Source: Octopus vulgaris | Lineage: Eukaryota | Assembly (NCBI GenBank): GCA_951406725.2 | Contig: OX597822.1 | Span: 72,726,001-72,790,000 of the forward strand | Reading direction: 5' to 3' | Length of the DNA: 64,000 bases | Shown: positions 1 through 64,000 of the stretch, piece by piece | Numbering within the stretch: position 1 is the stretch's first letter | How the letters are laid out: every line of letters begins with the position of its first letter | Program-made: the position numbers and the translations under genes | The notes under the pieces: generated by a model | The model's input: the letters and a program-made list of their open reading frames with translations, nothing else | Told to the model about the DNA's origin: nothing | Databases searched by the model: none

Positions 1-68
1 ACGACACAGTCTGTGTCCGATTAGTATTTGTGAGGGAGGTCATCGCTCCCATGTAGCCTTACGGGATG

Positions 69-113
69 CACATAGACCCGGGTTTCTGAGTGGTTACCCA
101 TCTTCAGAGTGTG
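69..113 (-). ncRNA. Minimal type I hammerhead ribozyme motif (core intact, stem I imperfect)
   Basis: Minus strand reads cacact-CTGAAGA-tgggt(aacc)actca-GAAAC-ccgg-GTC-tatgtg: complete core, 5-bp stem II, palindromic stem III acccgggt, GUC cleavage triplet; stem I has 2 mismatches next to the core. Confidence 0.7.
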
Positions 114-394
114 TTAATCACTAGCTATTGATAAAGAACTCGTTCCACTCGCAAAATACATTCTTTTTTCTAGCGACACACTTACGCTGATCTCGTAAAG
201 AGAGAGATAAGTTATATTAAATCACCGAGCGGGAGTTAAACAATAACAGTACGGAATCGTAAAATAAATTTGCCAACTAAATGTGGCGTTCCTATAGAGG
301 ACGGTGTTACTGTTGCATTAGGCAATACCTTTGTATGGTATTTATTCCCATGCTGGCCACTTGATAATATCGATATTATCCTTATTTATAAATT

Positions 395-665
395 GATATA
401 TATACATATATATATATACATACATACATATATATATATATACATATATATATACATATATATATACATAAATATATATACATATATATATACATATATA
501 TATATATACTTATATATATATATATATATATATACATATATATATACATATATATATACATATATACATATATATATACATATATATATATATATATATA
601 TATATACATATATATACATATATATATATATATATATATATATATATATATATATATATATATAT
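395..665. repeat. (TA)n/(TACA) compound microsatellite
   Basis: Direct inspection; source of the spurious YIYI ORFs. Confidence 0.97.
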
Positions 666-681
666 TATAGTATTAGTGAAG

Positions 682-812
682 AGGCGCAATTGCCCAGTGG
701 TTAGGGCAGCGGACTCGCGGTCGTAGGATCACGGTTTCGATTCCCAGACCAGGTGTTGTGAGTGTTTACTGAGTGAAAACACCTAAAGCTCCACGATCCC
801 CGGTAAGGGGAC
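682..812 (+). mobile_element. tRNA-derived SINE family B, 5' part
   Basis: ggcgcaattgcccagtggttagggcagcggactcgcgg...ggtttcgattcc (Pol III A and B boxes); matches copies at 4199-4583(-), 10889 and 23988. Confidence 0.85.
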
Positions 813-58589: not shown

Positions 58590-58696
58590 ATTTCTTACTG
58601 ACGAATCTAAGGGCCTATGGAAGATTGGCTTGATTTAATTTAATCAGGTTAGTTTACCATTAAACAGTAGATGAAACGGTGCATCGTATAAGAAAT
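58590..58696 (+). ncRNA. Intact type I hammerhead ribozyme, copy 2 (predicted cleavage after 58688)
   Basis: Identical to copy 1, 488 nt downstream. Confidence 0.9.
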
Positions 58697-61277
58697 TACA
58701 GGGTAAATGTTTTTTAATTTTCTCCTGGTTTGCGGAATTTAATGTTATTTTGCGGTTGAAGCTTTGGCTGTTATTTCTAGTGGGTGAATGGCCTATTATG
58801 GCCGTTCCTTGATTGTGATGTTGAACTTATAAATGGTATATGACTATTTAATTTTTTCCCACTAGGCCGCTGGTGGCAAAAAAATTCTACAAAATTTTTT
58901 TTGCCACCCTATATTGATTAATATATATATATATATATATATATATATATATATATATATAGAGAGAGAGAGAGAGAGAGAGAGAGAGAGCTAGCAAGCT
59001 AGCTAGATAGATAGATAGATAGACGTGCAATGTACTTTGAGTAACCATACATCGAATTGCGGATGATTGGCTCAATGCCCTCATGCTATTTTTGGCTAAG
59101 TGCCGTGGGCATTAATGTCACTATCAGTTTAGCAGAAGGTTGTATGAAATGCATGTGTCTGTCAAAGTTGTTATGTTCAAAATATCATAATTCATCATTA
59201 TATTTTCTCTCCTATCATATCAATTCATATCAATTTTAATTTATTCTTAATCCTATATCTCTGGAAATATATGGTGGTTTAAGAATACCATCTACTTAAG
59301 CAATTTCTAGTTAATCACTAGTTTAATAATTACTATTGATAATTACTTATTAATCACTAGTTTAATAATAACTAGTAATCACTAATTTAATAATTACGAG
59401 GGAAAGTCAAAAATTATGCTTTGTTTTGTAATTTATTAAAAGAAAAGGGTATCGTTGCCAAATGACCTGAAGGAAAAAGACGTGTTTTCCATTTGAAATA
59501 CCATTCAAAACAGGAGGTAATGTGTCTCCAAAAGGGGAAACTATCCGAATGTAAAGATGAGGGAATAGAGATAACCAGTGCGTGAGGACTGTAAACAGAA
59601 ATAATAAAATTCCGTATAAGAATAAGTCTGTTGGTGATGATTAAAAGTCATGAAGATAAATACATAACAAACATGTGTTTAAGATATGCAGAATGTAGGG
59701 AAAATGGCCTTGTTAGGCTCTACACACATTCCATAGAGATATGTCAATTTGAAAGGAAACACAAAGCCAATTCAAAACAATTCATATACCCAAGGCAAAA
59801 AGAGATGTGACTGACTGTACAAAGAAGGCATGTAATAAGAAATACTGAAACAGTATAACAATAACAATAATAATTATAATAATAACAATAATAATAATAA
59901 ATATAATGATTATTATTATTATTATTATTATTATTATTATTATTATTATTATTATTATTAATATTATTATTATTATTATTACTATTATTATTATTAAAAA
60001 GAAATTTTATTGTTGTTATAATAATAATAAATGTACATTATTGTATGTATTTCTGAAAAAAGCTGATAACGTTATCAATTATTTTCTTCTTGTTATTGTT
60101 TAACCTATCTTTACGCCACAGTTTTTTTTTTAGGGGTTAATTTAGAGTTGTCACCCTTCAATTGTATTCTCTATAAATATTTATAGTGGAAAGATAATGC
60201 TTATTTACTTCAGTTTTCTCGCCCGCTAACTGTCCCACATAACAATGAGATCGATCGTTTGTGTTTCTATGTAGAGTATTCAATTGTTTCAGATGAAGTG
60301 TGTTCTATATGTTTTAGGAAAAAATGCATGGTTTTTTCGTTGCATAATTAATGATTTAAAACTATTTTGAGTCATTTACTCCTGTGATTGTATAAGATGT
60401 CTTTATTTTCATTTTTGTTTCTTCCTCGGGTATACACAATCTGAAAAACAGTCTTTATTTTCTTCTCTATATCATTATCATTGTTTTCACGCCATTGCTT
60501 CTAGGAAGTGTTGTTTTGTTTTACATAATACACTTGCTTTCAAACTCAGAATTGATATACTGAGAAATACAACCGAGATTAGTGTACTTATAGTTATGAT
60601 TCTTATTGCTATCATTGCCTCCTCACTTTCTCCTTCCTGTTGTTGCAGTTTTAGCTCATGTTATCGTCGTTGTTGTTGTCCTTCTTCTCCTCCTCTTTCT
60701 TTTTCCTCTTTCCCTCCTCTTGCCATCATTATCATCATCGTCGTCATCATCACCACCATCATCATTATTAATGTCATTATTTTTTTCTTTTCCATTTTCA
60801 TTCTTATTGTTTGTGCCGAACGTATATCGTGTCGACCAATAAATGCATGATAAATTTTGGTGGAAGTATCGTGTTTACTGTTGTGAATTTTTGTTAAAAC
60901 ATTAATTAAACTGTGTGAAAAGAGTTATTGCCAAACTCTGCCCTGAAGAGCGCAATATGTCTATATCTTCTTTATGCCAATGTCATTGTGTTTTTCATTT
61001 TATTTCCGTTGCAATTATGGACTCAGATATGCCTACTTTCAGATTCAGTGACTAGGTAAGACAGAGTATGACTCACACCACAAGTAAATTCATTACAAAA
61101 TATTTGCATGTGAACAACCACAACAAAAACAATAAGGGCAATGGTAAAAGTCACGGTAGCAATAGTAAAGACAATGTTATCAACAACTAGAACAACACAA
61201 GCAATAACAACACCAGCACCAACAACAGGGACCAATAACTGATGAGTCTGTGTATTTCTGATAGTACTCGCTTAAAC

Positions 61278-61449
61278 TTTCGGCACAAGATCAGCAACTT
61301 AGTGGGAGGAGTAAGTTGTGTACATTGACCCCAGGGCCCGATTGGTACCTAATTTATCGACTCCGAAATGATGAAAGACCAAGTTGAATGCGGCGCCATT
61401 TGAACTCAGAACGTTAAGATGGATGAAATGAGGATAAGCAGCTCGCCTT
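61278..61449 (-). mobile_element. Degenerate SINE family C
   Basis: ggcacaagatcagcaa...tggtacctaatttatcgactccgaaatgatgaaag...tttgaactcagaacg...agctcgcc. Confidence 0.78.
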
Positions 61450-63142
61450 CTTTACTTCCTATAGTATTGACATGTATTAAATATACTAGATTCTCCTTCG
61501 TTATTGACGATGACCAAGTATATTACGTATGAGAAGAAAGCGGGTCACTATGTGTTCAGTTGTGGCCGATCAGTCCGATGCGTGTTCGAATACATAAAAA
61601 TCCTGTAACATGCCAGGCTTCGGATTTTCTTTCACTTTTCTTTTATAATTTTGGACGCCCAGAGTAAGAAACAGGCCTTTCAGTTCGAAGATGACTCTTT
61701 GAGAGGACACCAAATTTGAACCAATATCTAAGTTACTTTTTTCTCTAGATCGCAATGAAATCTGTAACTCACATGATTAAATTCATCACACATCCTGGCT
61801 AGTGTCTTTTGTTGTTGTTGTTAAATATTACAATTCATTTATATGAAGGTAGCAATTGGCTATTTCATAACAATTTAATGATATACACTTGATGTCTATG
61901 ATTATATAATAATTACGTTATCAGAAATAATAACTGAAAGACAAACACCGCACTAGTCTACGTTGAAAACATGATAGCACAGTATATTTGAATACAAGGA
62001 ACAAAGGGAATATTTCAATAAGTATAATTTGCCTAATGTGCTGTTAATAGGACAAATTGAATATTTTTCATATAATGGAAAAATAGTGACGTTCATTTAA
62101 CATAATCTAATTATCAATGAATAAAATATCAAACTTGCAAACGATACCATACATGATACCAACTAGAAGAGGGACATTCAACTATGCAAATAAATAAAAA
62201 TATGGTTAAACAGTAAATCTAAAATTCTTTGCCGTTATATATCTATGAAATAAATGGTAAGCAAAATTTTACATTTAAATTCGCTGGAATATTTTAAAAT
62301 CATTAACTGTAAAAATATCGTGGTCTAAAGAGAAATTTACAAAAAAGGCATACGCTATATATATATATCACCCGTCATTCAAGAAATAGCAACCACATCA
62401 CCCTTGTATCATACGATGTCGACGGAAAGCGGAAAAGGAAATGATCGTTTGATCATGTGAATAGTCCTGGATGTCTTCGCCTAAATAAAAAGAGTTTACA
62501 TACATAAGTATGCAGATATATATAGTATACATTTACTGTTAGAGGAAATACTATATAACTTGTTGGTTGTTTATTGATAATGAGTTATTTAGTCACGTTG
62601 TGGTCAAGAAGTATTATTAATTACTTGTTGAAATATCTATATAATTCTATCTATCTATCTATCTATCTATCTAGCTGTCTACAAAATTCTATCTCACACA
62701 CACACACACACACATATATATATACACACACACACATGTATATATACACACACACACACACACACATATATATATATATATATATATATATATATATATA
62801 TATATATATATATATATAAGATTGACCATTAAGTGATTTTTTTATTGTGTCTATTTCTTCGTAGGCTCGAAACGTAAAAGACTTTCGCACCTTCCCGAGC
62901 ATTAAACTAATACACCAGCTTGTTGTTTAAACAAGCGTCTGTGTCATTTGTTTTTCTGTAAATTTCCACTATATATATATTCCTTTATCCTTTTAATTGT
63001 TTCACTCATTTTACTGCGGCCATGCATATATATATACATACATTATAAATATATATATATATATATATATATATATATATATATATATATATATATATAT
63101 ATACATACACATATATACATGCATATAGTTAAGGTGTTATAT

Positions 63143-63315
63143 GTTCAGTAAAATTTAGATTCAGTTGAATATGGTACTTAATTTAAAGGCACCAGAATTT
63201 AGTATGGTATTATCCATATAATTCAAAATGGGTTGATTACAATCAAAATAAGCAACAAGGGTATCCAAAGGTAATGCATTACCGCTGGATATCCTTCTTG
63301 CTTATTTTGATTATA
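63143..63315 (-). mobile_element. Short copy of the 56283-57148 element ending in a fold-back
   Basis: gttcagtaaaatttagattcagttgaatatggtactt...aaggtaatgca matches 56285-56421, followed by a ~36-nt inverted copy. Confidence 0.8.
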
Positions 63316-64000
63316 TTTACATATATATATACAACGGACTTCTTTCAGTTTCCGTCCACCAAATCTGCTCACAAATCTTTGGTCGCCCCGAGGCTATACT
63401 AGAGGGCTTATATATGTATATATATATATATATATATATATATATATAGATGTATAATTACAGATGTATATGTATGTATATATATATATATATATATATA
63501 TATATATATATATATATATATATATATATATATTTATATCTATTTATATATATGTATATATTAATAAAAAATATATGCTCAATAATGTATATATATTTAT
63601 ACACACACAAACACATATATATATGTATACATATGACCCTACTCCTATTTACTCAGCATCATTTCCAGGACGTGAAAGCTGAACGAGAGAATTGTGGCTG
63701 AGTAGACTGCAGCAATGTGTTATATATATATCTCGATCATTGCCGAAACTTGCACTTCCGTCCACGAATTGAACCCATGGTCATTCTGACTGCGAGCGAA
63801 TAATTATAATCCTAATAATAAACACACACGACAGTATTAAATATACATACATACATAGATACATACATACATACATACATACATACATACATACATACAA
63901 ACATACATACATACATACATACATACATACATACATACATACATACATATGCATACATACAAGACTTGGAAGAGAATATGAACACACACAAACATTGTTC

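What the first reader, a model, noticed from the sequence alone, without database searches (positions are those of the whole stretch)
1..64000. (TA)n tracts act as landing pads for several unrelated ribozyme-bearing elements
Seen: at least four sequence-unrelated HHR families (69-113; 7702/48315; 56417; 58102/58590) plus several weaker remnants and short TA-bounded islands (e.g. 13975-14160, 26430-26630, 57297-57390, 62819-62970), nearly all bordered by (TA)n. Inference: a diverse microsatellite-targeting Penelope/retrozyme population may account for much of the unannotated inter-microsatellite DNA and may help propagate the TA tracts.
Basis: partly seen in the sequence, partly recalled or inferred. 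Interest (0 to 1): 0.7.

Follow-up and report, generated by a model that had tools for sequence, protein, structure and literature searches.

The report
Penelope-type hammerhead repeats in TA microsatellites
Several unrelated high-copy repeats carrying hammerhead-ribozyme motifs sit in TA microsatellites here, likely pasted into existing TA tracts by Penelope-like retrotransposon enzymes, which makes them new members of known kinds rather than a new system.

Summary
Observation confirmed. They belong to four unrelated repeat families with 1,281-3,469 genome candidates each. Three of the four named TA islands are tips of three further hammerhead-type families; 26430-26630 is single-copy.

3' ends abut (TA)n at 157 of 221 ends, against 31 of 225 control SINE/LINE ends and 2-6% of random positions. 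The TA is the target, not a carried tail: tandem junctions contain none, it often flanks 5' ends too, and two insertions split a SINE at its internal TA. Copies show Penelope-like (PLE) footprints: 5' truncation, partial tandems, inverted arms. All 28 two-armed copies of the young ~490-nt family have one long and one short end. Intact Neptune-type RT/GIY-YIG elements ending in (TA)n are in the genome, but none was linked by sequence to these families.

Overstated: these families cover about 5-8% of the window, and TA propagation is not shown. TA targeting by PLEs (octopus included), PLE hammerheads and retrozymes are published, and this scan found the same system before on other DNA of this genome.

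The parts
1..315 (-). Family A copy (~350-nt unit in partial tandem; continues left of the window). Type I HHR at 68-114, core CUGAAGA at 107, palindromic stem III; stem I damaged in this copy
   Evidence: 2,750 candidates; 14 of 30 copies with intact core
316..394 (+). 3' tip of family E, joined head-to-head to the 5' end of the A copy and ending at the TA tract 396-669
7622..7925 (+). Family B copy with 3' extension and a short inverted 5' piece; HHR core at 7706 with U16.1 lost; TA on both sides
   Evidence: BLAST 7651-7922; the first 29 nt read by eye
13976..14141 (-). 3' tip of family E; the family's HHR lies upstream of this truncated copy and is absent here
26695..27548 (+).
   Evidence: (1,693 candidates)
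48245..48540 (-). Family B copy, HHR core CCGAUGA at 48362; TA at the 5' side, (TG)n at the 3' side
   Evidence: (3,117 candidates)
56284..57150 (-). Family C, 5'-truncated copy of a >=2.4-kb AT-rich element; intact HHR core at 56500 with long stem II; fixed 3' end at TA; TA on both sides
   Evidence: (3,469 candidates)
57298..57391 (-). 3' tip of family H; an HHR-like motif lies upstream in a longer copy (L294) and is absent here
   Evidence: 11 of 15 fixed ends at TA
57901..58920 (.). Family D (retrozyme-type ~490-nt unit): inverted arm 57901-58080 ending at the short end, then 1.7 forward units ending at the long end; intact HHRs with cores at 58110 and 58598; TA on both sides
   Evidence: 3,228 exact matches of a 21-nt end motif, 0 for the reversed control
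62860..62969 (+). 3' tip of family G holding the 3' half of a minimal variant HHR (family core CUGUNGA)
   Evidence: 8 of 19 other copies with the full variant motif; 13 of 20 3' ends at TA
63118..63320 (.). Second, fold-back fragment of family C between TA tracts
26432..26627 (.).

Best explanation
These are several independent families of hammerhead-motif-bearing repeats, present in hundreds to thousands of copies, whose ends sit in (TA)n tracts; they were likely inserted there by target-primed reverse transcription using the enzyme of Penelope-like elements (PLEs). Shown: the families, their motifs, fixed 3' ends, variable 5' ends, tandem and inverted arms, TA on both sides, insertions that split a SINE at its own TA, and intact RT plus GIY-YIG elements in the same genome that also end in TA. 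Inferred steps: (1) a unit is transcribed and its hammerhead, probably as a dimer through the palindromic stem III, cuts the RNA to unit length, possibly to a circle; (2) a Neptune-, Hydra- or Naiad-type PLE protein nicks a pre-existing TA tract, on one or both strands; (3) reverse transcription starts at one of two fixed internal sites of the unit (about 100 nt apart in family D, 40 nt in the autonomous element), so one nick gives a 5'-truncated or multimeric arm and two nicks give two head-to-head arms, one from each site, off the same template; (4) repair leaves TA on both sides. Family D is a protein-free retrozyme. A, B, C, E, G and H are older and are either retrozymes or truncated non-coding 3' ends of PLEs whose coding parents were not found here.
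For: Motifs above chance. Five family cores with stem I pairing and palindromic stem III. In D, N7 is the only frequent three-allele site and the 12 conserved core positions show 1 change in 1,320 letters. Contigs of four other runs show A-U to G-C changes at both partners of two stem II pairs (58605/58672, 58609/58668) and a GC-to-AT swap that keeps stem III self-complementary. TA at 3' ends: A 15/40, B 18/37, C 30/40, D 66/68, E 28/36, F 19/19, against 2-6% at random positions and 31/225 at SINE/LINE outer ends. In a D sample picked only by an end motif, 12 of 13 insertions have TA at the long end. TA at un-inverted 5' ends: D 7/12, F 14/19. D inside the internal TA of a SINE with both halves present: L135 and L158 clear, L145 likely. 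Unit junctions lack TA. 28 of 28 two-armed D copies have one end at 489 and the other at 382-393 (27) or 413 (1). Both arms share one haplotype in 6 of 6 testable loci. Autonomous 781-aa PLEs have RVT_1 + GIY-YIG, DKG, a CxxxxCxxC linker and a U3-A8 variant HHR, and 11 of 11 end in (TA)n, 2 of them after a ~40-nt tail. Published: (TA)n preference of Neptune, Naiad and Hydra PLEs, including Octopus families; two internal RT start sites and cleavage of both strands in vitro.
Against: No family A-H was found as the 3' end of a PLE ORF. Hits in the 40 GIY-YIG loci were separate insertions, and tblastn of two PLE proteins against the family loci found only neighbours, so the mobilising enzyme is not identified. 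Self-cleavage, circles and expression are untested; in a published test only 1 of 9 predicted Xenopus retrozymes cleaved, and HHR cleavage was not needed for insertion by an anole PLE in vitro. Most window copies are damaged or truncated. The core-conservation test within D is weak: about 4 private changes expected against 1 seen (my estimate). TA adjacency of the old families is only 38-49% under a strict rule (A, B). Control repeats also show raised TA adjacency (14%) in these TA-rich loci. Family F behaves alike without a canonical HHR, so the ribozyme is not what directs targeting.
Confidence: 0.85

Rival explanations
1. The elements carry or synthesise the (TA)n themselves, as a tail, and so create new microsatellites.
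For: TA is commoner at 3' than at un-inverted 5' ends in C (30/40 vs 4/20) and E (28/36 vs 1/14). Summed flanking TA of D averages 69 nt against a size-biased background of 44-47. L128 shows a repeated [3' tip + TA] block.
Against: Internal unit junctions of D and F and the upstream repeat of the autonomous PLE read through without a TA tract. TA flanks 5' ends too in D and F. Split-SINE cases show a pre-existing tract. Longer flanks also fit a preference for long targets or later slippage.
Confidence: 0.1
2. The units spread as DNA (satellite-type unequal crossover, rolling circle or fold-back repair at fragile TA tracts), and the hammerheads are passengers.
For: Arrays reach 13-14 units with within-array homogeneity (3.2 differences within an arm vs 7.3 between loci). 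TA tracts are breakage-prone (recalled). Li et al. propose local amplification after insertion.
Against: Fixed 3' ends with variable 5' ends, a copy-number fall from 3,469 to 269 candidates upstream in C, and the strict long/short rule across inverted arms are retrotransposition footprints that crossover does not predict. Local expansion may still add units to some arrays.
Confidence: 0.04
3. The motifs and TA adjacency are chance in an AT-rich, microsatellite-dense genome.
For: 101 TA tracts in 64 kb. One-mismatch descriptor hits occur in shuffles (mean 0.9). One named island is single-copy.
Against: Family-wide conserved cores, compensatory changes, and an odds ratio of 15 over other repeats' ends.
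Confidence: 0.01

Closest known systems
Metazoan non-LTR retrozymes (Cervera and de la Pena 2020, PMC7229834, passages read; Li, Clavereau and Pollet 2026, 10.64898/2026.07.22.740005, parts 1-3 of 5 read)
   Same: Family D: non-coding, 36.5% GC, tandem units each with a type I HHR, monomers to multimers, proposed PLE dependence.
   Different: Unit ~490 nt is above the 150-450 range of the 2020 paper but inside the 51-972 range of the 2026 one. Stem II is very long. TA targeting and head-to-head arms were not described in the parts I read ('microsatellite' and 'octopus' occur 0 times in the main text of PMC7229834).
EN+ Penelope-like elements: Neptune, Hydra and Naiad clades (Craig et al. 2021, PMC8557442; passages, sections 3 and 11, supplement rows)
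   Same: (TA)n target preference (listed for Hydra-1_Obim, Naiad_Obim and Naiad_Ovul), 5' truncation, partial tandems, inverted 5' copy, tail at one end, HHR near the 3' end.
   Different: The window's families carry no ORF. The tail of D is about 100 nt and that of B about 160 nt, not 30-40. No sequence link to a described PLE was tested: I did not compare with the supplement's sequences.
Minimal dimeric PLE hammerheads (Cervera and de la Pena 2014, PMC4209133; parts 1-2 of 4 read)
   Same: Many unrelated consensus families per genome, mostly as truncated single motifs; palindromic helix III; extra nucleotide before stem II (G); U3-A8 core variant (autonomous element).
   Different: U4C (B) and A6U (G) cores and 25-68-nt stem II regions were not in the parts read.
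PAc, Poseidon PLE of the green anole (Frangieh et al. 2024, PMC11167929; passages read)
   Same: Two internal RT start sites that explain the tail; both DNA strands cut; AT-rich targets; predicted dimer.
   Different: Autonomous, of another clade, with no microsatellite targeting. The one-long-one-short pairing across inverted arms was not in the passages read.

Membership tests
Type I hammerhead ribozyme | Core CUGANGA, GAAA, UH with stems I-III | tested here: met
   D x2 and C intact in the window; A intact in the family consensus; B has a U4C core in 16 of 21 matched copies
Type I hammerhead ribozyme | Covariation in stems, free variation at N7 | tested here: met
   Family D: N7 is G/C/A in 51/47/12 of 110 units; paired changes at two stem II pairs in other runs. 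Contig depths support phase for 58609/58668 better than for 58605/58672.
Type I hammerhead ribozyme | Self-cleavage | not testable with these tools
   Needs in vitro transcription
PLE-type dimeric hammerhead | Short palindromic helix III | tested here: met
   A, B, C, D and E stem III sequences are self-complementary
Non-LTR retrozyme (family D) | Tandem units each with a complete type I HHR | tested here: met
   110 full units in 40 loci, arrays up to 13 full units
Non-LTR retrozyme (family D) | Non-coding, GC below 50%, no LTR structure | tested here: met
   Longest stop-free frame 70 aa in a natural 10-mer; GC 0.365
Non-LTR retrozyme (family D) | Linear and circular unit-length RNA | not testable with these tools
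   Only contigs of runs guessed to be RNA were available
Non-LTR retrozyme (families A, B, C, E, G, H) | [quoted passage not shown] | tested here: inconclusive
   A forms partial tandems of a ~350-nt unit; C is a >=2.4-kb non-tandem element with no codon periodicity and no Pfam hit; the others were seen only as tips
PLE-mobilised insertion | 5' truncation, partial tandem, inverted 5' arm, tail at one end | tested here: met
   F shows no inverted arm (0 of 19)
PLE-mobilised insertion | Sequence homology to the pseudo-LTR of an autonomous PLE | tested here: not met
   No family continuous with a PLE ORF in 40 fetched GIY-YIG loci out of 6,136 candidates; the sample is dominated by two Neptune-type families and would miss Hydra or Naiad parents
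Neptune/Nematis-type EN+ PLE (781-aa element elsewhere in the genome) | RT with DKG, C-terminal GIY-YIG with two internal cysteines, CX2-5CxxC linker | tested here: met
Neptune/Nematis-type EN+ PLE (781-aa element elsewhere in the genome) | Placement in the RT phylogeny | not tested
   No reference set fetched

The most novel reading that the evidence does not exclude
A dimeric PLE enzyme nicks both strands of a TA tract and copies one circular hammerhead RNA from two fixed start sites at once, giving the strict one-long-one-short rule. Many unrelated protein-free circles compete for this machinery, and each insertion lengthens and splits the TA tract, so that the retrozyme community feeds its own target pool and helps explain this genome's microsatellite load.
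Probability: 0.25. Interest if true: 0.65.

Novelty: new member of a known kind. Interest (0 to 1): 0.36.

Why it matters
It assigns a visible share of unannotated DNA between microsatellites to PLE and retrozyme activity in a likely cephalopod genome (the organism is my recall from its SINEs plus earlier scan notes). A 2026 repeat annotation of Octopus vulgaris has 0 occurrences of 'ribozyme' in its main text. The young family D, with about 3,200 matches of its end motif and a 28-of-28 end rule, is a good natural read-out for how PLE enzymes make tandem and inverted insertions, which Craig et al. list as unresolved. The general picture is already published.

Tried and rejected
Rfam scan: the 150 of 348 rows shown were microsatellite matches to miRNA and similar models, none at gathering score. 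A PLE-specific Pfam accession recalled from memory is not in the library. Coding capacity of family C's upstream part: no long frame, no Pfam hit in 12 read-through frames, no codon periodicity against a clear positive control. L219 looked like a parent of C but holds a separate C-like insertion in the TA after a PLE. Target-site duplication using interrupted TA: 0 of 59 against 0.75 per shuffle, uninformative in pure TA. Split-host script flagged 5 loci: L196 dropped as a microsatellite-only match, L090 not inspected. Hetero-family head-to-head joints: 1 of 63 non-TA 5' flanks, the window's own A/E joint, so not a general rule. Empty-site alleles at the window's D insertion were not obtained, so TA lengthening stays open. 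Sequencing runs: no RNA holder listed. Sequence look-ups of earlier findings and the near look-up returned nothing. Literature searches were made; none listed a paper on octopus retrozymes, but the library lacks most subscription papers, and the bioRxiv supplements of Li et al., which could list relevant families, are closed.
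Full report
Setting. The window is G000:C9:72726001-72790000 of a 2.8-Gb animal genome, likely an octopus (my recall of its SINEs, and earlier scan notes). It has 101 (TA)>=5 tracts, grouped into 61 clusters.

Observation. A type I hammerhead descriptor allowing a long stem II finds perfect motifs at +58110, +58598 and -56500 and a one-mismatch motif at -48362. Twenty local dinucleotide shuffles give 0 perfect hits, and a mean of 0.9 with one mismatch allowed. The motif at -107 has an intact core and damaged stem I; +7706 has lost U16.1. 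Genome searches show four families: A (1-315) 2,750 candidates, B (7622, 48245) 3,117, C (56284) 3,469, D (57901) 1,281 (candidates are not copy numbers, and only the best 40 were scored). An exact 21-nt end motif of D occurs 3,228 times, its reversed control 0 times. Consensuses from 30 copies each restore full motifs for A and C and a CCGAUGA variant for B. Intact cores are in 14, 25 and 24 of 30 copies of A, B and C. All have a palindromic stem III, the mark of dimeric PLE hammerheads described in PMC4209133 (parts 1-2 of 4 read). The families are unrelated apart from one 44-nt AT-rich D/E hit.

Islands. 13976-14141 is the 3' tip of family E, whose hammerhead lies further upstream in longer copies. 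62860-62969 is the 3' half of a minimal variant hammerhead family G. 57298-57391 is the tip of family H, with a motif upstream in one longer copy. 26433-26626 is single-copy. Its neighbour 26695-27548 is a TA-bounded tandem family F without a canonical motif.

Are the motifs functional? In 110 full D units from 40 loci, N7 is the only frequent three-allele site and the 12 conserved positions carry 1 change in 1,320 letters. The latter is weak alone: about 4 changes are expected from private mutation. Contigs of four other runs show A-to-G and T-to-C at both partners of two stem II pairs, a GC-to-AT swap at the centre of the stem III palindrome, and, in the 40 of 49 rows shown, no core change other than N7. 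Cleavage itself is untested. In Li et al. (parts 1-3 of 5 read) only 1 of 9 predicted retrozymes cleaved.

TA targeting. With a (TA)>=4 run starting within 10 nt of the end, 3' ends score A 15/40, B 18/37, C 30/40, D 66/68, E 28/36 and F 19/19; random positions score 6% (2% outside tracts) (6 of 25 F loci were dropped as cut by the locus edge or duplicated). A-E together are 157/221, against 31/225 outer ends of SINEs found in the same loci (odds ratio 15; 13 LINE ends scored 0). G and H score 13/20 and 11/15. These samples are the best BLAST matches; a D sample taken only by the end motif along one contig gives 12 of 13 insertions. Three facts make TA the target. Internal unit junctions have no TA tract. 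Un-inverted 5' ends often have TA too (D 7/12, F 14/19, B 12/23; but C 4/20, E 1/14). And D copies at L135 and L158 sit inside the internal TA of a SINE whose two halves flank them. Ends tend to fall at short AT microhomologies of the unit (and the ends printed).

Insertion anatomy. Of 40 D loci, 28 have two head-to-head arms. All 28 pair an end at unit position 489 with one at 382-393 (27) or 413 (1); 12 single-armed loci end at 487-489 (8) or 388-389 (4). The 100 nt between the two ends include a 13-bp hairpin. Units within a locus share one haplotype, across both arms in 6 of 6 testable loci, so both arms come from one template or lineage. B has an analogous ~160-nt extension in a subset of copies. 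C drops from 3,469 to 269 candidates 500-800 nt upstream and extends at least 2.4 kb without coding signs. This matches the PLE structures in PMC8557442 and the two internal RT start sites and double-strand cutting shown for an anole PLE in PMC11167929 (passages).

The likely enzyme. GIY-YIG gives 6,136 candidates, many in intact 781-aa frames. These have RVT_1 and GIY-YIG, DKG, a CxxxxCxxC linker and an upstream ORF, that is, Neptune or Nematis type by the features in PMC8557442; no tree was built. Eleven of 11 end in (TA)n, 9 at one site and 2 after a ~40-nt tail, and they carry a U3-A8 variant hammerhead. None of families A-H was continuous with a PLE ORF in the 40 loci fetched, so the partner is inferred. 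Hydra and Naiad elements, listed with (TA)n preference for Octopus in the supplement of PMC8557442, would be under-sampled by this search.

How much, and does it spread TA? Hammerhead families cover 3,454 nt (5.4%) of the window, or 5,020 nt (7.8%) with other TA-bounded repeats, touching 18 of 61 TA clusters. All repeats recognised by the fetched loci cover 27% and simple repeats 12%. These are lower bounds, but they do not amount to 'much' of the DNA. Summed TA around 33 D insertions averages 69 nt against 44-47 expected from length-biased sampling, which fits lengthening, duplication or a stronger preference for long tracts. No informative duplication was seen. Insertion does split one tract into two.

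Comparison and verdict. TA-targeting PLEs, families of minimal PLE hammerheads and PLE-dependent retrozymes are all in print. My searches listed no paper on octopus retrozymes. Earlier notes of this scan describe the same system, a 490-base family and the short/long end rule on other pieces of this genome; I had seen the rule before reading them. Verdict: real, well supported, new members of known kinds, with one mechanistically useful regularity. Interest 0.36.

Noticed in passing
window 1-394: Family A (minus strand) and a family E tip (plus strand) are joined 5'-to-5' with about 10 nt between and no TA, like a two-armed insertion made from two different RNAs; only 1 of 63 non-TA 5' flanks showed this, so a deletion between neighbours is as likely.
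   Followed up: partly
window 26695-27548: Family F: young ~670-700-nt tandem family, 19/19 3' ends at TA, never inverted in 19 loci, no canonical hammerhead; a degenerate CUGA-like stretch lies near unit position 90-130.
   Followed up: partly
window 56284-57150; L253, L262, L263, L270: Family C is at least 2.4 kb long, 27% GC in the window copy, with no ORF, Pfam hit or codon periodicity; its 5' end and nature are unknown.
   Followed up: partly
L234 1268-4968 and relatives (L231-L238, L249, L250): Young, probably active Neptune-type PLE with a 479-aa ORF1, a 781-aa RT/EN ORF and a U3-A8 variant hammerhead.
   Followed up: partly
window 45732-46690: Decayed Helitron Rep fragment (PF14214, E 2.4e-10).
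   Followed up: partly
window 49560-50970 and 5200-6300: LINE reverse-transcriptase remnants (RVT_1 E 6e-21 and 7e-5).
   Followed up: partly
window 3179-3264: Near-perfect ~85-nt fold-back centred on a TA tract, made of microsatellite and a short unique arm.
   Followed up: no
window 34688-35111 and 31919-32053: Further TA-bounded multi-copy repeats with a CUGAAGA but no GAAA partner seen; class unassigned.
   Followed up: partly
window 6437-6832, 11869-12295, 46698-47107: A SINE with an internal (TA)n; an independent source of TA tracts and a host for family D insertions.
   Followed up: yes
L128 right end: An 11-nt tip of the D long end plus TA occurs twice in tandem, possibly repeated abortive priming.
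   Followed up: no
window 28850-29060 and 29885-30060: A local imperfect duplication of about 200 nt, read by eye.
   Followed up: no
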